Positions 6,715 to 61,652 of a stretch of 64,000 nucleotides of DNA are shown here, one piece after another. How positions within the stretch are numbered: position 1 is the first letter of the stretch; every line of letters begins with the position of its first letter. Source of the stretch: Azospirillum brasilense (GTDB lineage: Bacteria; Pseudomonadota; Alphaproteobacteria; Rickettsiales; UBA3002); assembly GCA_003241645.1 (NCBI GenBank), contig QFOX01000003.1, positions 1,500 through 65,499 of the forward strand, read 5' to 3'. A model generated the notes under the pieces. It did no database searches, was not told the origin of the DNA, and saw nothing but the letters and a program-made list of their open reading frames with translations. The position numbers and the translations under genes were made by a program.

Positions 6715-7983
6715 GTGGCAAAATACACGCATCGCCATCGCCTGCATGCCGACGATCCGAACCTGCGTCCCGCGGGCAGCGAGCGCGCGCGCGTCATCCG
6801 TGCCGCGTTCGATCTGGCGACGCTGGCGCATGCCGGGCAAAGCCGCGACAAGATCAACCCCACGATCGATTACATCAGCCACCCGATCATGGTGTACGAC
6901 ATCCTGCATGAGCTGGGCGAAGATGACCCCGCGCTGCTGGCCGCCGGCTTCCTGCACGACGTGCTGGAGCAGCCCGCCTACCGTGGCGACCCGGAGCGGT
7001 TGCTGCGCGAGCTGGAGGTGGCGCTGGAAAAAGAGGGCGTCGACGCATCGCGCGCGAAGCCGCTGGCGCAGCAGATCTACACGCTGGTCTACGAAGTCAC
7101 CAACCCGGCGGTGCTGCCCAAGAACAAGGAACTCTATCAGATCGACCACGGCACGCAGATGAGTTTTGCGGCCAAGAAACTGAAGATCGCCGATCAGGCC
7201 GCGTCGCTGGTGTGCAACCTGCTGTTGCCCAATGATGCGGAGGTGATTTCCTACGAGAAGGAGCGCGGCTTCAAAGAAAAAGCCGAAACGCTCTGCTATT
7301 CCATGATCGCCTCGGTGCAGCAGCACCCCGCCGAACGTGAAGCCATGGCACCGTATGACGCGTTCTTCTCGCGCGTGCTGCGGCAGGCGAACCAGCTCTT
7401 TCCGCACCCCAAATCCACCCCGCAATATATCTTCCGCGAACGCATGCGTGTGCGCCACCATTTCGATTTCTACGAACTGTTCACCGGGCCGGTCGCGTCG
7501 CTGCTCGCGCCGAAAAGCGCGATCGCCGAGAAACTCTATTTGTACGATCCTGACGCCTTGCCCGAGAAGCTGGAGAAGGACGCCCCCCTCGGCCTGATCC
7601 GGCTGGATTACGACGCACAGGGCCGCGTGGCGTCGTTCTACCTGCATGTGAGCAACGATTCCTCGCGCGAGAACGAGATCAACCAGCTGCAGCAAAAACT
7701 CACCGCTGAGATACGTGACCGGCTTCGCTGGGCTGGCCAATATACGGAAACTGCGAAACAACCGGTGCAGATGAGCATGCTGCAACCCGGCGAATTAGCC
7801 CCCATCGACCAGAATATCCGCCGCTACGACCTGCACCCCGCCATGCACCACGACGCGTTCGCCGCCGCGGCCAAAAGTGCGGGCGTGACCAGCATGCGCG
7901 ATGCGCAGCTCATCAAGAAAATTGGCGGGCAGTTGCGGCAGGACCACGACCGGCTGCACAAGGTGCCGGGGCGGAATCTTTAA
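6715..7983 (+). CDS. Mesh1/SpoT-like HD-domain (p)ppGpp-hydrolase homologue fused to an uncharacterised C-terminal domain
   Basis: GTG start at 6715. The N-terminal ~200 aa read AHAGQSRDK...YISHPIMVYDILHELGEDDPALLAAGFLHDVLE ... YEVTNPAVLPKNKELYQIDHGTQMSFAAKKLKIADQAASL, giving the H...HD...(K)IAD pattern of RelA/SpoT hydrolase (HD_4) domains. I do not recognise the remaining ~220 aa. Confidence 0.7.
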   Translation: MAKYTHRHRLHADDPNLRPAGSERARVIRAAFDLATLAHAGQSRDKINPTIDYISHPIMVYDILHELGEDDPALLAAGFLHDVLEQPAYRGDPERLLRELEVALEKEGVDASRAKPLAQQIYTLVYEVTNPAVLPKNKELYQIDHGTQMSFAAKKLKIADQAASLVCNLLLPNDAEVISYEKERGFKEKAETLCYSMIASVQQHPAEREAMAPYDAFFSRVLRQANQLFPHPKSTPQYIFRERMRVRHHFDFYELFTGPVASLLAPKSAIAEKLYLYDPDALPEKLEKDAPLGLIRLDYDAQGRVASFYLHVSNDSSRENEINQLQQKLTAEIRDRLRWAGQYTETAKQPVQMSMLQPGELAPIDQNIRRYDLHPAMHHDAFAAAAKSAGVTSMRDAQLIKKIGGQLRQDHDRLHKVPGRNL

Positions 7984-9095
7984 GCGGCGGCGGGCACGCC
8001 CTTGCTGGTCGAATATTCGAAATGGTGCGCCACGCCGGGATACACGATCTCGCGGATCGCATGCGCGGCCTGCGCCGCTTCGGCAAAGCCACACAGGATC
8101 AGCTTCAGCTTGTGCGGGTAGGTCGCAATGTCGCCAATGGCAAAAATGCCGGGCGCACTGGTGGCGCTGGTGCCCACCTGCGTGGCAATGTGGTTGCCAT
8201 GCAGGTTCAGCCCCCAGTTGGCGATGGGGCCCAGCTCCATGCTCAGCCCGAAGAAGGCGAGCAGATGGTCGGCCTCCACTTCGCGGATGGACCCATCCAT
8301 GGATTTCAGGCCAACGGCCGTTAGCTTTTTCTTAAGAAGGGGGGCTTGCCCCCCCTTCGCTTCGCTGACCCCTGCCGCAAGCGGCTCGCGCAGCTGCGGC
8401 GCTACGCTATCGCTAACTTCAACACCCGCCAGTGATTCCAGCTGGTAAGGCACCACGAATTCAATTTTACCGGCTTCGGCCAGCGCCTGCATTTTGCTGA
8501 CCGATTCGGGCATGGCGCGGAACTTGTCGCGGCGGTGCACCATGTAGATCTTCTTGGCCACTTCCGCGAGCGAATTGGCCCAGTCCACCGCGCTGTCGCC
8601 ACCCCCGGCAATGACCAGCGTCTGGTCGCGGAAATCTTCGCGTTTGGCCACCATGTAATGCACGCTGGTGCCCTCGAACTGCTCGATATTGGCCAGCGGC
8701 GGGCGGTTCGGGCCGAACGCCCCGCAGCCAGCCGCAATGATCACGGCCTTGCAGTCGATCACGGTGCCTTTGTTGGTGCCCACGCGCCAGCCGCCGTCGC
8801 GCTTTTCCACGAGGGTCACCTGCTGGTCGAGGTGGTAGACGGGGTCGAACGGCGCGGCTTGGGCTGCAAGGTTATCGATCAGCCCCTGGCCTTCAATGCT
8901 GAGAAAGCCCGGAATATCGTAGATGGGTTTTTCCGGATACAGCGCGCTGCACTGGCCGCCCACGGCGGGCAGCGTGTCGATCACATGGGCGCGGATCTTC
9001 AGCATGCCCAGTTCAAAGATGGCAAAAAGCCCCACCGGGCCCGCGCCAATGATGGCCACGTCGGTTTCGTGTGTTGTGCTGTGCGGTATGGTCAT
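7980..9095 (-). CDS. ferredoxin-NADP(+) reductase, thioredoxin-reductase-like type, carrying an in-frame repeat insertion
   Basis: Motifs are VAIIGAGPVGLF (FAD), VIAGGGDSAVDWA (NADPH) and FAIGDIATYP. The start is ATG 9095 (MTIPHSTT). At 371 aa it is about 30 aa longer than I recall for this family. The excess maps to the repeat at 8336-8407. Confidence 0.85.
   Translation of the reverse strand: MTIPHSTTHETDVAIIGAGPVGLFAIFELGMLKIRAHVIDTLPAVGGQCSALYPEKPIYDIPGFLSIEGQGLIDNLAAQAAPFDPVYHLDQQVTLVEKRDGGWRVGTNKGTVIDCKAVIIAAGCGAFGPNRPPLANIEQFEGTSVHYMVAKREDFRDQTLVIAGGGDSAVDWANSLAEVAKKIYMVHRRDKFRAMPESVSKMQALAEAGKIEFVVPYQLESLAGVEVSDSVAPQLREPLAAGVSEAKGGQAPLLKKKLTAVGLKSMDGSIREVEADHLLAFFGLSMELGPIANWGLNLHGNHIATQVGTSATSAPGIFAIGDIATYPHKLKLILCGFAEAAQAAHAIREIVYPGVAHHFEYSTSKGVPAAA
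8336..8407. repeat. GC-hairpin repeat (family R), copy inside the ferredoxin-NADP reductase ORF
   Basis: GAAGGGGGGCTTGCCCCCCCTTCGC..TGACCCCTGCCGC..GCGGCTCGCGC..CGGCGCTACGC is near-identical in blocks to 21319-21401 and related to 34816-34941. Confidence 0.8.
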
Positions 9096-9142
9096 TTGAC
9101 GAAACGCTTTAAAAGAGTGATAGTGATTAGGCAATGAAAACT

Positions 9143-9227
9143 GTCATTGCGAGCAAAGTGCGCAGCAATCCAGCCATGAAGCCCAGAGGCCTCTGGATTG
9201 CCACGTCGCTTCGCTTCCCGCAATGAC
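9143..9227. repeat. 85-bp palindromic element (family A), copy 1
   Basis: GTCATTGCGAGCAAAGTGCGCAGCAATCCAG ... CTGGATTGCCACGTCGCTTCGCTTCCCGCAATGAC has arms that are inverted repeats. Copies occur at 21773-21857 and 61443-61526. Confidence 0.9.
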
Positions 9228-9239
9228 GAAGGAGTATGC

Positions 9240-20574: not shown

Positions 20575-21772
20575 TCAATCCGCGCGGGGTTTGCGCGGGG
20601 CTTTCGTTGCAGGTTTTGCCGCACTGTTGCGCTGCATCACCAGCCCTTGCAGCAGGGCCAGCACTTTGTGGTCCACGCCGGAGAGCGGTAGCGCCGAAAT
20701 TTCCTCACGGCTGAACCAGCCGGGGCTGTTCATGCGCTTGTGCAGCCGCGCATGCACGACGCGCCCTTCCAGCCGGAAATGGCTGTAGATATGCGTCACG
20801 TGCCCGATCTCTTCCCAATGTTCGGCGTGCATTTCGCGCATGGGGTAGCGCAGGTCGGTCGTTACCGGCACTTGCGGAAAGCCATACAGCCCACCCAGCA
20901 GCGCGGCCTCCCGCGCTTCCAGATGCAGGTGGCCCGCCGCGTCTTCCAGCACCAGCAGGTACATGGCGCGCGTCGGGGTGGCCTTCTTCGGCTTCGGGGC
21001 GGGGTAACGCTCCGGCGATTTTTTGCCCTTGCAAATGCTATTGGCCGGGCAGCTCGGGCAGTCGGGTTTCTTGGGTGTACAGACCATGCTGCCCAGATCC
21101 ATCATCGCCTGATTATGGTCGAACGGTTCGGCCGTGTTCAGCAGCGCCTGCGCGCCGTCCCATAACTCCGTATCGCTGGGCTTCTCCCACGCGAACACCC
21201 GCGCCACGATGCGCTTCACGTTCGCCTCTAAGATGGCCACCGGCTGGCGATACGCGAATGCCGCGATGGCATGGGCCGTGTTTTTGCCGATGCCGGGGAG
21301 GGATTGGAGCTGTTCAAGCGAAGGGGGGCTTGCCCCCCCTTCGCGCGTTTCACGCGCTGACCCCTGCCGCTTCGCGGCTCGCGCCACTTCGGCGCTACGC
21401 ACCGGCTGCATCAACCCCAGTGCCACGGCCTTCTTCGCGCCCTCATGCAGGAACCCGGCACGGCGATAATAGCCAAGGCCCTCCCACGCTTTCATGACCT
21501 GCTCGCGCGGTGCTTCGGCCAGCGCCTGCACGGTCGGGAATTTCTCTAGGAACGGGGGGTAGAACCGCGCCAGCACGGTGGCCACCTGCGTTTGCTGCAG
21601 CATCACCTCCGACAGCCAGATGCGGTAGGGATCATCCGTCTGCCGCCACGGCAAATGGTGCCGCCCCTGTGCCGTGTACCACGCTGCCATGGCCGCATGA
21701 AACCTGTGTAAATCACGCGGTTTTATTTGCGGCACCGTGGGGGTGGTGCTAGGAGTTTGTCTGATTTTACGC

Positions 21773-21777
<5 letters not shown>
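20575..21777 (-). CDS. mutY: A/G-specific adenine DNA glycosylase MutY, carrying an in-frame repeat insertion
   Basis: Motifs are WLSEVMLQQTQV, the HhH LPGIGKNTAHAI, the 4Fe-4S cluster CTPKKPDCPSCPANSIC and a Nudix-like C-terminal domain. Candidate starts at 21777 and 21810 both lie inside the family A repeat. Confidence 0.85.
21319..21401. repeat. GC-hairpin repeat (family R), copy inside the mutY ORF
   Basis: CGAAGGGGGGCTTGCCCCCCCTTCGCGCGTTTCACGCGCTGACCCCTGCCGCTTCGCGGCTCGCGCCACTTCGGCGCTACGC shares blocks with 8336-8407 and 34816-34941. Confidence 0.8.
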
Positions 21778-23721
<1,944 letters not shown>

Positions 23722-34815: not shown

Positions 34816-34941
34816 GAAGGGATATGCTATCCCTTCGTCGCCTGCAGCTCCTTACCCTTTTGGCTCCCGATGGTCGCCTCTTTTCGCTTTGCTCCAAGTC
34901 GTTCGCTGACGCTCACGGCTCGCGCCACTTCGGCGCTACGC
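34816..34941. repeat. GC-hairpin repeat (family R), long intergenic variant
   Basis: The 5' hairpin is GAAGGGATATGCTATCCCTTCG. The 3' block TTCGCTGACGCTCACGGCTCGCGCCACTTCGGCGCTACGC matches the mutY copy almost exactly. Confidence 0.7.
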
Positions 34942-35201: not shown

Positions 35202-37151
35202 ATGAGTGGTCGTGACGGTCTTTTAGGATTTGATATTCGTGGCGCGGGCCGTGAAGTGCGCGATTTGCGCCGCACCATGGACGAGGTGGGTCGCACCGTT
35301 GGCACCGGCGAGGCGCTGATTGGTGGCCACATCAACGGCGCCGAGGAAGCGCGCTACCGCACCCGCAATTACCGCACGCAGGGTCAGGCGAATGACGCCG
35401 AAGGCCGTTACATCATCAGCGAACATCGCCTCGAAGCCATTCGTGACGGTGATTTTGGCACCCCGGTGCGCCGCACCGCCGCACCGCGCCAAGCGAGCTA
35501 TGGCCAGGCACAGCCCGGCGGCTACAGCCAGCTGCCCCCCGAAGAATACCAGCGCGGTAGCGCACCGGAAGCACCCGTGGCGGCCCGTGCCGCCGCCCCG
35601 GCTGCAGCCCAGCGCGGCCCCGTTCGCCCGCTGGTGGCGAACGAGCGCCTGATCGAATCCGTCATGGGTGAGCTGGGCGATGCTGCCCGCGCCCAGACCC
35701 CGGCCGAGCGCGACGCCGCGCTTGATCGCTTCATTGCGGTGACCAACCGCATCGGTAAGGACACGCCGATCCAGTCCATCGGTGGCGAACTGAAAGTGAA
35801 TGGCGCCAACGGTGCGCAGATCGATATTCCGCTGCCGCCGCGCGGCCGCACCTTCACCATCACCGATATGGTGACGCCGTACCTGCGCCAGAACCGCGAG
35901 CTGGGCGATGCACTCGCCGCCCGTATCGCCGCGTCGAACGGCCAAACGGTGGAAGCACCCGCCAACCAACCGCAAGCACCGGCCACTGGCGCACCGACCA
36001 CGGCTGCGCCCGCCACTGGCGCTCCGGCTACGGCTGCTCCCAGCACTGGCGCACCCAGCACCGGCGCTCCCAGCACCGGCGCACCCAGCACCGGCGCTCC
36101 TGCACCGGCTACGGGCGCAACAGGCGCGCTGACCGCCGCTACCGGCGGTTCGGCACGCACCTACAGCCTGCGCACCAACACCGACGACATGCCGAAGATC
36201 GCCGCCAATCAGGTGGCTGACCTGCAGGGCCGTCTGGTGGATGCTGGCTTTGACCTTACCACCCGCCGCCAGGCCGATGGTAAGGACGGCAAATACGGCC
36301 CGAAAACCGAAGCCGCGGTGAACGCTATTGCCCGCGAAGCCGGGGTGAACCCAAAAGACATCGACTTCACTAACGCGCAAGACCCCGACACGGTGAAATT
36401 CATGCAAACGCTGGATGCGCGCATTGCCTCGCGCGGCCGTGCGGCGGCTCCGGCCCCCGTGGTGCCGCAAGGCCCGACCCCGGAAGAGCTGGCAGCTCAG
36501 GCGGAACGTGACCGCCTTGCCGCCGAAGAAGCCCGCATTCCCGAAGCGATCCGTGGCACGCACTACGACCCGCGCGTGAGCGCCACCATGAGCCAGGCCG
36601 AGCGCGATGCGCTTGCCCGCAAAGGCCTGCATGCGCTGGACGAGATCGCCTCCGAGAACGGGGCACGTGATCCCGAAACGCTGGCCCGCAAGATCCGCGA
36701 AGTACAGAAAGACGCTGGCATGCTGCAAAGCGGTGAAGCCAGCCCGCAAACGCTGGCCGCCCTTGGGGTGGCCGTGGCCGAACGCAGTGGCCTCGCTGGC
36801 CGCGCTGGCAACGTGTACGAGGGTGCGCAGTCGCAGGCGGAAATGAACGCGGCCGCTGCCGTGGGCTTCCATGCGCTGGACGAGACCGCGGGCATCACCC
36901 GCAACCCGGAAGTGCTGGCCCGCAAGGTGCGTGAGTTCGAACGCGAGAACAACCTGACCGTGGATGGTCGCGTAGACCCCGCCATGCTGCAGGCACTGGA
37001 GCAGGCCGTGGCCGCGCGCGGTGGCCTCACGCAGGTGCGTGGCGGCACCGAGGTGAGCGCCAACGGCGGTGAGCCGCCGGCATCGCCGACCGTACAGACC
37101 AACCCGCAGCTTCAGCAGACCCGTCTGGCTGAAGGTGGGCAGCGCGCGTAA
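35202..37151 (+). CDS. hypothetical 649-aa protein with peptidoglycan-binding-like repeats and a PSTGA low-complexity linker
   Basis: GGAG lies upstream of ATG 35202. VADLQGRLVDAGFDL...DGKYGPKTEAAVNAIAREAGV resembles PG_binding_1. Two further ~80-aa repeats end in LARKIREVQKDAGMLQSGEASPQTLAALG and LARKVREFERENNLTVDGRVDPAMLQALE. I do not recognise the N-terminal 250 aa, and there is no obvious signal peptide. Confidence 0.6.
   Translation: MSGRDGLLGFDIRGAGREVRDLRRTMDEVGRTVGTGEALIGGHINGAEEARYRTRNYRTQGQANDAEGRYIISEHRLEAIRDGDFGTPVRRTAAPRQASYGQAQPGGYSQLPPEEYQRGSAPEAPVAARAAAPAAAQRGPVRPLVANERLIESVMGELGDAARAQTPAERDAALDRFIAVTNRIGKDTPIQSIGGELKVNGANGAQIDIPLPPRGRTFTITDMVTPYLRQNRELGDALAARIAASNGQTVEAPANQPQAPATGAPTTAAPATGAPATAAPSTGAPSTGAPSTGAPSTGAPAPATGATGALTAATGGSARTYSLRTNTDDMPKIAANQVADLQGRLVDAGFDLTTRRQADGKDGKYGPKTEAAVNAIAREAGVNPKDIDFTNAQDPDTVKFMQTLDARIASRGRAAAPAPVVPQGPTPEELAAQAERDRLAAEEARIPEAIRGTHYDPRVSATMSQAERDALARKGLHALDEIASENGARDPETLARKIREVQKDAGMLQSGEASPQTLAALGVAVAERSGLAGRAGNVYEGAQSQAEMNAAAAVGFHALDETAGITRNPEVLARKVREFERENNLTVDGRVDPAMLQALEQAVAARGGLTQVRGGTEVSANGGEPPASPTVQTNPQLQQTRLAEGGQRA
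35976..36120 (+). repeat. in-frame tandem repeat (15-bp units, PxTGA/PSTGA)
   Basis: Four near-perfect units CCCAGCACYGGCGCW span 36039-36098, flanked by degenerate units. The region encodes APATGAPTTAAPATGAPATAAPSTGAPSTGAPSTGAPSTGAPAPATGATG. Confidence 0.9.
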
Positions 37152-61440: not shown

Positions 61441-61442
61441 TC

Positions 61443-61526
61443 GTCATTGCGAGCAAACTGCGAAGCAATCCAGTCCTGAGAGCCCGTATCCCTGGATTGC
61501 CGCGTCGCTTCGCTCCTCGCAATGAC
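61443..61526. repeat. 85-bp palindromic element (family A), copy 3
   Basis: GTCATTGCGAGCAAACTGCGAAGCAATCCAG...CTGGATTGCCGCGTCGCTTCGCTCCTCGCAATGAC starts 3 nt after the ispG stop. Confidence 0.9.
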
Positions 61527-61652
61527 GTATTATATGCTTGCCAGCCGCATTCCACCCGGCTAACAACCAAGCACCGCATGCAAGGGCGTGCGTGGAAGAA
61601 GCAGGCGAGCGACGCCGCTTCGCCAACCTAGGATAAGTGAATTGAAACGTTA

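What the first reader, a model, noticed from the sequence alone, without database searches (positions are those of the whole stretch)
8336..8407. Short GC-hairpin repeat inserted in-frame inside the ferredoxin-NADP reductase gene
The segment GAAGGGGGGCTTGCCCCCCCTTCGC..TGACCCCTGCCGC..GCGGCTCGCGC..CGGCGCTACGC recurs inside mutY (21319-21401) and intergenically (34816-34941). In this gene it encodes about 30 extra residues (..VSDSVAPQLREPLAAGVSEAKGGQAPLLKK..). These fall between PYQLESLAG and LTAVGLKSMDGSIREVEADHLLAFFGL. From memory, TrxR-type FNRs continue directly at this point, and they are about 335-345 aa against 371 here. The ORF stays open, so the repeat is either translated as a loop or the gene is tolerated in altered form. 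This mirrors Rickettsia palindromic elements (RPEs), which I know only from AT-rich Rickettsiales, not from a GC-rich genome.
Basis: partly seen in the sequence, partly recalled or inferred. Interest (0 to 1): 0.75.

Follow-up and report, generated by a model that had tools for sequence, protein, structure and literature searches.

The report
REP-like hairpin repeat inserted inside genes
A roughly 90-base GC-rich mobile repeat made of small hairpins sits in frame inside the ferredoxin-NADP reductase and mutY genes of an uncultured alphaproteobacterium, adding about 25-30 residues to each protein; this kind of in-gene repeat is already known, but the family appears undescribed and is unusually well conserved.

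Summary
Window 8336-8407 is the core of an insertion of about 90 nt (about 8327-8420) in a TrxR-type FNR gene on the minus strand. The closest orthologue (96% aa identity) and most others are 339-345 aa and lack it. The window protein has 29 extra residues in a beta-hairpin turn.

The same element lies in frame in mutY (21320-21400). A degenerate copy is intergenic (34816-34941).

I found about 40 copies in related alphaproteobacterial MAGs and metagenome contigs. Many are intergenic. Others lie in frame in CarB, PriA, MnmC, MutY and FNR. The same loops are hit repeatedly, and the mutY loop in both orientations.

The element is a head-to-tail mosaic of 3-4 short GC hairpins. Two units carry GTAG or GAAG heads, the stems show compensatory variation, and there are no terminal inverted repeats or clear target duplication. 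It is REP/BIME-like rather than a classical MITE or an RPE sequence family.

One result is unexplained. The mutY copy is 97.5% identical between lineages whose mutY genes are 80% identical.

Verdict: a new member of a known kind, of moderate interest.

The parts
7980..9095 (-). Host gene: TrxR-type ferredoxin-NADP reductase, 371 aa including the insertion
   Evidence: ORF. Pfam Pyr_redox_2/3. PDB best hit is 5ygq, ferredoxin-NADP reductase, E 8e-103, with the alignment split at query residues 216/257.
8327..8420 (+). Whole inserted element in FNR. Boundaries are approximate. The net gain is 87 nt relative to the empty site in L003. The gene reads the reverse strand.
   Evidence: DNA alignments of filled and empty sites. 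The family alignment shows a T-rich left flank and a conserved right end GCTACGC followed by about 10 nt.
8336..8358 (+). Hairpin H1, GAAGGGGGG-CTTGC-CCCCCCTTC (-18.6 kcal/mol). On the mRNA-sense strand it carries a GAAG head, which is GTAG in sister subfamilies.
   Evidence: Stem variants GGGGGG/CCCCCC, GGGGAC/GTCCCC, GGGGGC/GCCCCC, GGGGTG/CACCCC and GGGATA/TATCCC all fold into the hairpin.
8364..8385 (+). Conserved linker GCTGACCCCT followed by hairpin H3 (GCCGC AA GCGGC)
   Evidence: This motif retrieved 22 metagenome loci.
8386..8407 (+). TCGC, then the variable small hairpin H4 (GCGC AGCTGCG GCGC), then GCTACGC. On the mRNA-sense strand this reads GCGTAGC, a GTAG head.
   Evidence: H4 differs between copies but always forms a hairpin.
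20575..21690 (-). Host gene mutY (adenine glycosylase), 371 aa from the ATG at 21690. The longer ORF that runs to 21810 reads through a REP.
21320..21400 (+). Second in-frame copy, inside mutY, with an extra hairpin module H2 (GCGCG TTTCA CGCGC, 21343-21357). It encodes ..RSAEVARAAKRQGSARETREGGASPPS..
34816..34941 (+). Degenerate intergenic copy, starting 13 nt after the stop codon of an acyl-CoA dehydrogenase gene. It has an H1-like hairpin GAAGGGATATGCTATCCCTTC and the element's 3' end GCTGACGCTCACGGCTCGCGCCACTTCGGCGCTACGC.

Best explanation
The segment is one copy of a dispersed, non-coding, REP/BIME-like mosaic repeat of about 75-95 nt. It occurs in a clade of uncultured alphaproteobacteria whose sampled contigs have roughly 47-64% GC.

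Read on the mRNA-sense strand, the element has this order: GCGTAGC, a small variable hairpin (H4), GCGAGCC, hairpin H3 (GCGGC nnn GCCGC), AGGGGTCAGC, an optional small hairpin (H2), then GCG(A/T)AG with a 9-bp G/C hairpin (H1), then an A-rich tail. This amounts to two GTAG/GAAG-headed stem-loops arranged head to tail and joined by a conserved linker.

The element spreads as selfish DNA. By inference, a RAYT-like or IS200/IS605-type tyrosine transposase acting on single-stranded hairpins moves it in trans, with no terminal inverted repeats and no target duplication.

Most insertions into genes are lost. The survivors add a multiple of three bases, carry no stop codon, and fall in permissive surface loops or interdomain linkers. 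In the window FNR the insertion replaced the 3-residue turn of a beta-hairpin in the NADPH domain. It is most likely translated as a flexible loop of about 30 residues that does not abolish function.

Shown here: the repeat family, the insertion relative to orthologues, preservation of the reading frame, the hairpin architecture with compensatory variation, and recurrent use of the same loops.

Inferred: the transposase, actual translation, and neutrality.
For: (1) The repeat is real. The 25-mer has 2 exact copies against 0 expected. The family HMM finds about 40 copies in the window and 30 or more related contigs, with E-values down to 1e-21.

(2) It is an insertion. P0002 (96% aa identity, 91% nt identity, same gene neighbours) and 13 other aligned orthologues lack it.

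(3) The same DNA lies in frame in unrelated genes. These are mutY (window), CarB (L009), PriA with two copies (L012), MnmC with two copies each (L011, L033), and FNR at a different loop in the opposite orientation (L044, nhmmer E 3.6e-12). Every in-gene copy keeps the frame although insert lengths differ (+87, +72 and about +75 nt). At least three reading registers are used: EGGASPPS, KGGQAPL and, in the other orientation, EGGLTPPS.

(4) The architecture is REP-like. H1 folds in all 14 sequence variants tested and shows compensatory stem changes. H1 is GTAG-headed in the GGGGAC and GGGGGC subfamilies. GCGTAGC next to H4 is conserved. No terminal inverted repeats were seen.

(5) Insertion sites are loops or linkers. 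The FNR insert lies between strands E218-227 and E255-264 of the model and has pLDDT 29-33. It corresponds to 5ygq residues 213-224. The MnmC copies lie between the Methyltransf_30 and DAO domains.

(6) The FNR copy has a close sibling elsewhere. It is 71/72 identical to a copy just upstream of an apparent start codon, at a different locus, in another MAG (L008). That fits fairly recent copying, although strong constraint on the sequence (see the Against line) would also keep copies this similar.

(7) There is precedent. Intragenic REPs and RPEs are documented (PMC3733652; PMC10969869).
Against: No transposase was identified. Only about 0.3 Mb of the relevant genomes was available, and a crude HUH/Tyr motif screen of ORFs in the loci from the two collection scans (L007-L034) found nothing.

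The window's H1 head is GAAG, not GT(A/G)G, and the H4 stems are only 3-5 bp.

The units are head to tail, not the inverted pairs typical of REPINs and BIMEs.

There is no direct evidence of translation.

The in-gene copies are much better conserved than a neutral loop should be. The mutY copy is 79/81 nt identical between the window and L039, against 80% for the rest of the gene, and 26/27 against 61% at third codon positions (P about 3e-6 and 3e-5).

The FNR insert is present in the window and in UBA6189 (80% nt identity outside the insert) but absent from the closer L003 lineage. That pattern needs two gains at the same codon or a precise loss.

The structure model is only moderate (mean pLDDT 64).
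Confidence: 0.72

Rival explanations
1. The element is kept inside genes because its DNA or RNA hairpins do something there. Examples would be a protein-binding site for a RAYT, gyrase or nucleoid protein, or an mRNA structure that affects stability or translation pausing. On this view it is under purifying selection at the nucleotide level and is not merely tolerated.
For: The orthologous mutY copies are 97.5% identical where the gene is 80% identical, and divergence resumes right at both junctions. The only two differences form a compensatory pair in H3. L043 carries the compensatory change GAAG..CTTC to GTAG..CTAC in H1, and H4 is a different hairpin in each lineage. A formal count gives 2 pairs with changes on both sides, reached by 7 of 500 shuffles. 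The intergenic REP dimer next to the same gene has been replaced by a different variant between the same two lineages.
Against: Presence is patchy among close relatives. FNR is empty in L003, and mutY is empty in many lineages. Orientation and reading frame vary at the same site. Some copies show mismatches in H1, for example L028, L013 and L037. High similarity could also arise from re-insertion next to an old copy followed by deletion, from gene conversion, or from independent site-specific insertion. The covariation evidence is thin because most pairs are invariant.
Confidence: 0.18
2. The insert is a classical MITE, a deletion derivative of a DDE-type insertion sequence with terminal inverted repeats and target-site duplications.
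For: Its size (about 90 nt), dispersal and AT-rich flanks are MITE-like.
Against: The two ends are not inverted repeats of each other: GAAGGGG.. at one end and ..GCTACGC at the other. No direct duplication flanks the FNR or mutY copies when compared with empty sites. Internal modules come and go, as they do in BIMEs.
Confidence: 0.05
3. The segment is not expressed as protein. It is removed from the transcript or bypassed by the ribosome, as with intron-like elements or the 'byp' elements of yeast mitochondria.
For: It forms very stable hairpins inside a coding region (-42 to -54 kcal/mol for the whole element).
Against: All in-gene copies (about a dozen distinct sites and lineages) add a multiple of three bases and carry no stop codon, despite different lengths and registers. 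Removal or bypass would not require that. There is no Rfam intron or ribozyme match.
Confidence: 0.03
4. The extra residues are a native, lineage-specific loop of FNR, or an assembly artefact, and the similarity to other loci is coincidental.
For: Loop lengths do vary among FNR orthologues (P0070 and P0093).
Against: Nucleotide identity with copies in unrelated genes and intergenic regions is far beyond chance. The UBA6189 FNR insert is present in three independent assemblies (L001, L002, L010). The P0127 mutY insert is present in three assemblies.
Confidence: 0.01

Closest known systems
Intragenic GTAG/CGTC-tagged REPs (Di Nocera et al. 2013, BMC Genomics 14:522, PMC3733652); REPs and RAYTs (Nunvar et al. 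2010, PMC2817692)
   Same: Both are short GC-rich stem-loops with a GTAG-type head and compensatory stem variants. Both occur singly or grouped and are mostly intergenic. A subset lies inside ORFs, encodes about 20-30 aa, and is notably found in replication and repair genes (here MutY and PriA). In both cases the same site in a gene is hit in related species, as reported for Xanthomonas recB. The loop of H1 (GCTTGC) with a G-run stem resembles the Pseudomonas fluorescens REP GTGGGAGGGGGCTTGCCCCCGAT.
   Different: Here the unit is a fixed head-to-tail mosaic of 3-4 hairpins with a conserved linker (GCTGACCCCT plus H3), not a single REP or an inverted dimer. The window subfamily has GAAG instead of GT(A/G)G at H1. 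No RAYT was seen. The share of in-gene copies in the GGGGGG subfamily looks much higher: 7-9 of about 10 copies sampled, although that sample is small and was selected on the hairpin sequence.
Rickettsia palindromic elements (RPE-1 to RPE-10; Ogata et al. 2000 and 2002, from my own knowledge; reviewed in PMC10969869)
   Same: Both are selfish repeats inserted in frame in many unrelated housekeeping genes. Both sit at permissive surface positions, keep the ORF open, and also have intergenic copies.
   Different: RPEs are AT-rich, about 100-150 bp, single long palindromes, and occur in obligate intracellular Rickettsia. This element is GC-rich, is a chain of short hairpins, and is about 75-95 nt long. 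No sequence relationship was shown, and the hosts are uncultured alphaproteobacterial MAGs at about 58-62% GC.
BIMEs (bacterial interspersed mosaic elements of E. coli and Stenotrophomonas)
   Same: Both are modular combinations of palindromic units and conserved linkers, with modules present or absent between copies.
   Different: BIMEs have REPs in alternating orientation and are extragenic. Here the units are head to tail and many copies are in genes.
IS200/IS605-derived hairpin-ended mini-elements and REPINs (Bertels and Rainey 2011, PMC3116915)
   Same: Both lack terminal inverted repeats and target duplications and have subterminal hairpins. A short pyrimidine- or T-rich pentamer (TNATT or CTCCT) sits directly 5' of H1. 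That could be a target or cleavage site, as in IS608 and ISDra2 (comparison from my own knowledge).
   Different: There is no two-fold REPIN symmetry and no linked transposase. The pentamer may simply be part of the element.

Membership tests
Rickettsia palindromic elements (RPE) | Inserted in frame in several unrelated protein-coding genes, ORFs kept open | tested here: met
   FNR, MutY, CarB, PriA and MnmC all carry the element in frame.
Rickettsia palindromic elements (RPE) | Element is one long imperfect palindrome (about 100-150 bp, AT-rich) | tested here: not met
   Folding and alignment show 3-4 separate short GC hairpins with no overall dyad symmetry, about 75-95 nt in length.
Rickettsia palindromic elements (RPE) | Sequence similarity to an RPE family consensus | not testable with these tools
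   No RPE reference sequences were available. Rfam has no match at or near the site.
GTAG-tagged REP superfamily | GT(A/G)G head directly next to a GC-rich stem-loop (stems 5-13 bp) | tested here: inconclusive
   On the mRNA-sense strand, GCGTAGC plus H4 is conserved, but the stems are only 3-5 bp. H1 is GTAG-headed with a 6-7 bp stem in the GGGGAC and GGGGGC subfamilies, but GAAG-headed in the window's copies.
GTAG-tagged REP superfamily | Palindromy preserved by complementary changes among copies | tested here: met
   Five complementary H1 inner-stem variants all fold. Compensatory pairs occur in H3 (L039) and H1 (L043) at the orthologous mutY site.
GTAG-tagged REP superfamily | High copy number per genome and a RAYT gene flanked by the repeats (REPtron) | not testable with these tools
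   No complete genome of the host was available. There are 3 copies in 64 kb. A crude HUH/Tyr screen of ORFs in the loci from the two collection scans (L007-L034) found no candidate.
MITE | Terminal inverted repeats | tested here: not met
   The ends GAAGGGG.. and ..GCTACGC(ACG) are not complementary.
MITE | Target-site duplication | tested here: inconclusive
   No duplication is visible at the FNR or mutY junctions compared with empty sites. However, 3 codons were replaced or have diverged, so the exact boundaries are uncertain.
BIME | Mosaic of palindromic units and conserved linkers with optional modules | tested here: met
   H2 is present or absent, H4 is variable, and the linker GCTGACCCCT is constant.
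BIME | REP units in alternating orientation | tested here: not met
   The two headed units are head to tail, and the tandem copies in PriA and MnmC are direct repeats.

The most novel reading that the evidence does not exclude
The element is more than tolerated junk. It is a GC-rich counterpart of RPEs that returns to the same few protein loops: the mutY loop in both orientations, the MnmC linker in two lineages, and FNR at two loops. Once inside a gene, its hairpins are held by nucleotide-level selection stronger than the selection on the host gene's own synonymous sites. That would imply either a site-directed 'homing' insertion mechanism or a function of the hairpins inside coding DNA or mRNA.
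Probability: 0.2. Interest if true: 0.75.

Novelty: new member of a known kind. Interest (0 to 1): 0.45.

Why it matters
In-frame survival of selfish hairpin repeats is usually taught through Rickettsia RPEs. This case shows the same phenomenon, at what looks like high frequency, in uncultured alphaproteobacteria at about 58-62% GC. The affected genes are core ones: FNR, MutY, PriA, CarB and MnmC.

It has three practical uses.
- It supplies natural permissive-site maps for these enzymes.
- It warns annotators that 25-30 aa low-complexity inserts (..REGGASPPS.., ..EPLAAGVSEAKGGQAPL.., ..EGGLTPPS..LTPAASRLAP..) are repeat-derived.
- It offers a system for asking whether intragenic REPs are neutral or constrained, because the orthologous copies are far more conserved than the surrounding codons.

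Tried and rejected
- Rfam, both at gathering thresholds over the window and with a permissive scan of 8250-8500, gave only chance-level hits.
- An exact 23-mer scan of 185,579 species genomes found only 6 loci. Five were alphaproteobacterial MAG contigs. One was a Chthoniobacteraceae contig that shares only the hairpin.
- A look-up of the window's own FNR protein found no record.
- A search of 1.84 billion representative proteins with the 35-aa insert peptide gave 1 hit, a 36-aa fragment with E 5e-4. The query is too short, and 50%-identity representatives mostly lack inserts.
The range of host proteins could therefore not be measured at the protein level.
- Cluster look-ups returned no organism names, so the host's taxonomy stays at 'Alphaproteobacteria bacterium' MAGs.
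- GC skew across the window is flat, so nothing can be said about orientation relative to replication.
- A crude HUH/Tyr motif screen for a RAYT among 120 candidate ORFs from the loci of the two collection scans found none. This is a weak test.
- A literature search for the element's sequence strings matched only Pseudomonas REP papers, through the shared GGGGGCTTGCCCCC core. The supplement of PMC3733652 has none of the peptide signatures.
- The MAFFT alignment of H1 variants was out of structural register. The formal pair count therefore covers only the outer H1 pairs and H3, and it used copies from which I had removed H2 or normalised the linker. H3 was also part of the search pattern, so its invariance carries no information.
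Full report
**1. The observation**

It lies inside a minus-strand ORF (7980-9095, 371 aa). That ORF is a TrxR-type ferredoxin-NADP reductase. It matches Pfam Pyr_redox_2/3, and its best PDB match is 5ygq, a ferredoxin-NADP reductase, at E 8e-103.

The 25-mer GAAGGGGGGCTTGCCCCCCCTTCGC occurs exactly twice in the window, at 8336 and 21320, with none expected in shuffles. The 3' module GGCTCGCGC-N6-GGCGCTACGC occurs at 8383, 21376 and 34917.

The second copy is inside mutY, also on the minus strand (20575-21690). The third starts 13 nt after the stop codon of an acyl-CoA dehydrogenase gene and is degenerate.

**2. It is an insertion**

I aligned 15 of the FNR homologues returned by the protein search with the window protein. 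Fourteen show a 3-residue turn between ..PYQLESLAG and KL.AVGLKSMDG.., where the window has 32 residues.

The closest orthologue, P0002, is 342 aa and 96% identical at the protein level. It comes from contigs with the same neighbouring genes that are 91% identical in DNA. Its empty site reads GGC GAT GGT ACC AAG CTC. The window has a net 87 extra nucleotides there.

It has a T-rich stretch before the first hairpin and about 10 nt after GCTACGC.

In mutY, the PDB alignment of the window protein breaks between E. coli MutY residues 97 and 98, leaving about 25 extra residues. Many orthologues have only ..AKRAHNGLP.DVEGL.. at that point.

**3. The family**

An exact scan for the main hairpin in species-representative genomes found it in alphaproteobacterial MAGs: UBA6189, SOY_31_metabat_223, bins.32 and an 'Azospirillum sp.' bin.

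I then scanned metagenomes with a different part of the element, GCTGACCCCTGCCGC-N2-3-GCGGCTCGC. This returned 22 loci. All but two closely similar loci (L020 and L027) carry a hairpin in the H1 position.

A profile built from 27 copies finds about 40 copies in the DNA gathered.

The consensus on the + strand is: a T-rich stretch of about 6 nt; H1, GAAGGGG(nn)CTTG(nn)CCCCT(T/A)C; GC(T/A..)C; an optional small GC hairpin H2; GCTGACCCCT; H3, GCCGC-nnn-GCGGC; TCGC; a small variable hairpin H4; and GCTACGC(ACG).

There are no terminal inverted repeats and no visible target duplication.

H1 exists with five complementary inner-stem versions: GG/CC, AC/GT, GC/GC, TG/CA and ATA/TAT. All of them fold.

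On the strand that the host genes transcribe, the element reads GCGTAGC-H4 ... GCG(T/A)AG-H1. That is two GTAG- or GAAG-headed stem-loops arranged head to tail. This is the architecture of REPs: a GT(A/G)G head followed by a GC-rich imperfect palindrome (PMC2817692; PMC3733652). Here the units are combined in a BIME-like mosaic.

**4. Where the copies sit**

Many copies are intergenic. Some follow a stop codon (L015, L016, L030). Others lie directly upstream of a start codon, with H1 abutting AGGAG (L008, L017, L025/L028, L026).

A notable set is in frame inside genes confirmed by Pfam:
- CarB (L009).
- PriA, with two tandem copies inside the helicase domain (L012).
- MnmC, with copies in the linker between the methyltransferase and FAD domains in two different lineages, plus one N-terminal copy (L011, L033).
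- MutY in many lineages.
- FNR in the window and in UBA6189.
- FNR at a different loop, in the opposite orientation, in a 'Rickettsiales bacterium' MAG (L044, E 3.6e-12).

Every in-gene copy keeps the frame although insert lengths differ. At least three reading registers are used. The window FNR and mutY copies are read one base apart at H1 (KGGQAPL versus EGGASPPS).

Of the roughly ten copies with the window's exact H1 variant, most are in genes. Of the copies retrieved through H3, most are intergenic. Both samples are small and selected, so I do not give a rate.

**5. Recurrent sites**

The mutY loop is a hot spot.
- The window, P0127, P0131, P0151 and P0157 carry the element in one orientation.
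- P0128, P0129, P0130, P0133, P0137, P0138 and P0144 carry it in the other (..EGGLTPPS..LTPAASRLAP..).
- P0134, P0136, P0140, P0148, P0155, P0160 and others are empty.

I confirmed the two orientations and the empty site at the DNA level (L035 and L036 against the window and L037, with L038 empty).

For FNR, the window and UBA6189 (80% nt identity outside the insert) both have the element at the same codon. The closer L003 lineage (91%) and P0003 lack it. This requires either two gains at one site or one gain followed by precise loss. I cannot decide between these.

**6. Structural position**

The AlphaFold model was built from a shallow 16-sequence alignment and is only moderate (mean pLDDT 64). 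It places the insert (residues about 230-254, pLDDT 29-33) between two strands, E218-227 and E255-264. That is the turn of a beta-hairpin, and it agrees with the gap in the 5ygq alignment (residues 213-224). A disordered surface loop is the most likely outcome, but I did not map it against the cofactor sites or the dimer interface.

**7. An unexplained result**

The in-gene copies are much better conserved than their hosts.

For mutY, the window and L039 share the same junctions and the same rare H2 module, so the two copies are probably orthologous. They are 79/81 identical inside the element and 26/27 identical at third codon positions. The rest of the gene is 80.1% identical overall and 61.2% at third positions (binomial P 3.5e-6 and 3.2e-5).

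Divergence resumes at both junctions. The only two differences form a compensatory pair in H3.

Across five lineages, H1 and H3 persist. L043 has the compensatory change GAAG..CTTC to GTAG..CTAC, and H4 is a different hairpin in each lineage. The formal pair count is modest: 2 compensatory pairs, reached by 7 of 500 shuffles, with most pairs invariant.

By contrast, the intergenic REP dimer next to mutY has been replaced by a different variant between the same two lineages.

Possible causes are:
- selection on the hairpins;
- renewal by insertion next to an old copy followed by deletion (tandem copies exist in PriA and MnmC);
- gene conversion;
- repeated site-specific insertion.

**8. Comparison with what is known**

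Functionally this behaves like Rickettsia palindromic elements. A 2024 review still treats RPEs as the outstanding case of in-frame fusion (PMC10969869).

However, Di Nocera et al. 2013 already listed GTAG and CGTC REPs lying inside ORFs in Opitutus terrae, Thauera, Xanthomonas, Stenotrophomonas, Sphingopyxis alaskensis and Erythrobacter litoralis. Those inserts encode 20-30 aa, many lie in replication and repair genes, and some occupy the same site in related species (PMC3733652). That these hosts are GC-rich is my own knowledge.

I found no description of this particular mosaic family. Sequence strings matched only Pseudomonas REP papers, through a shared hairpin core.

**9. Verdict**

The best explanation, at about 0.7 confidence, is a REP/BIME-like selfish repeat that survives in permissive loops and is translated. 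Mobilisation by a RAYT-like enzyme is an inference only. I rate it a new member of a known kind and of moderate interest. The interest rises if the nucleotide-level conservation and site recurrence reflect function or homing.

Noticed in passing
window 9142-9228, 21772-21858, 61442-61527: Three inverted dimers of a second repeat family, (C/T)GTCATTGCGAG..GCAATCC(AG). They fit the CGTC-tagged REPs that PMC3733652 reports as predominant in alphaproteobacteria. Two of the three lie directly 5' of the two genes that carry the in-frame element (FNR and mutY).
   Followed up: partly
window 21691-21810: The longest mutY ORF (411 aa) starts inside the CGTC REP dimer (..LLDCFALLAMT..). The real start is probably the ATG at 21690, which gives the 371-aa product matched in the protein collection.
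   Followed up: partly
L039 2753-2889 (thiC-mutY spacer): At the position of the window's CGTC REP dimer, this related lineage has a different REP variant (TGTCATCCCTGCGCAGGCAGGGAT .. ATTCCCGCCTTCGCGGGAATGACA). Intergenic REPs therefore turn over while the in-gene element is conserved.
   Followed up: no
window 35954-36145: A 15-nt tandem repeat with about 8 overlapping register copies inside a 649-aa ORF (35202-37151). It encodes a Pro/Thr/Ala/Gly-rich stretch (..APSTGAPSTGAPSTG..).
   Followed up: no
L008, L017, L025/L028, L026 (left flank of H1): In four independent loci the main hairpin is followed directly, on the gene's strand, by AGGAG or AGGAA and then a start codon 5-9 nt further on. 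The element may supply, or may prefer to insert next to, a Shine-Dalgarno-like purine tract. In L025 and L028 the upstream ORF also reads through the element to its stop codon.
   Followed up: partly
alignment A1, P0070 (columns about 103-120): Another FNR orthologue has an unrelated-looking 14-residue insert (SREPCTDSVDGQRS) at the loop where L044 carries the element. I did not check it at the DNA level.
   Followed up: no
mutY orthologues P0135, P0162, P0163: The same mutY loop carries other, longer or dissimilar inserts in further lineages, for example ..AAPRSSSPCGRRLGGGGEPCAPSDAPPPQPSPARGKGV... The loop is hypervariable across the clade.
   Followed up: no
L007 1813-1835 (Chthoniobacteraceae MAG): The exact 23-nt hairpin occurs in a verrucomicrobial contig without the rest of the element. 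This could be convergence of a simple G-run hairpin or an unrelated REP.
   Followed up: no
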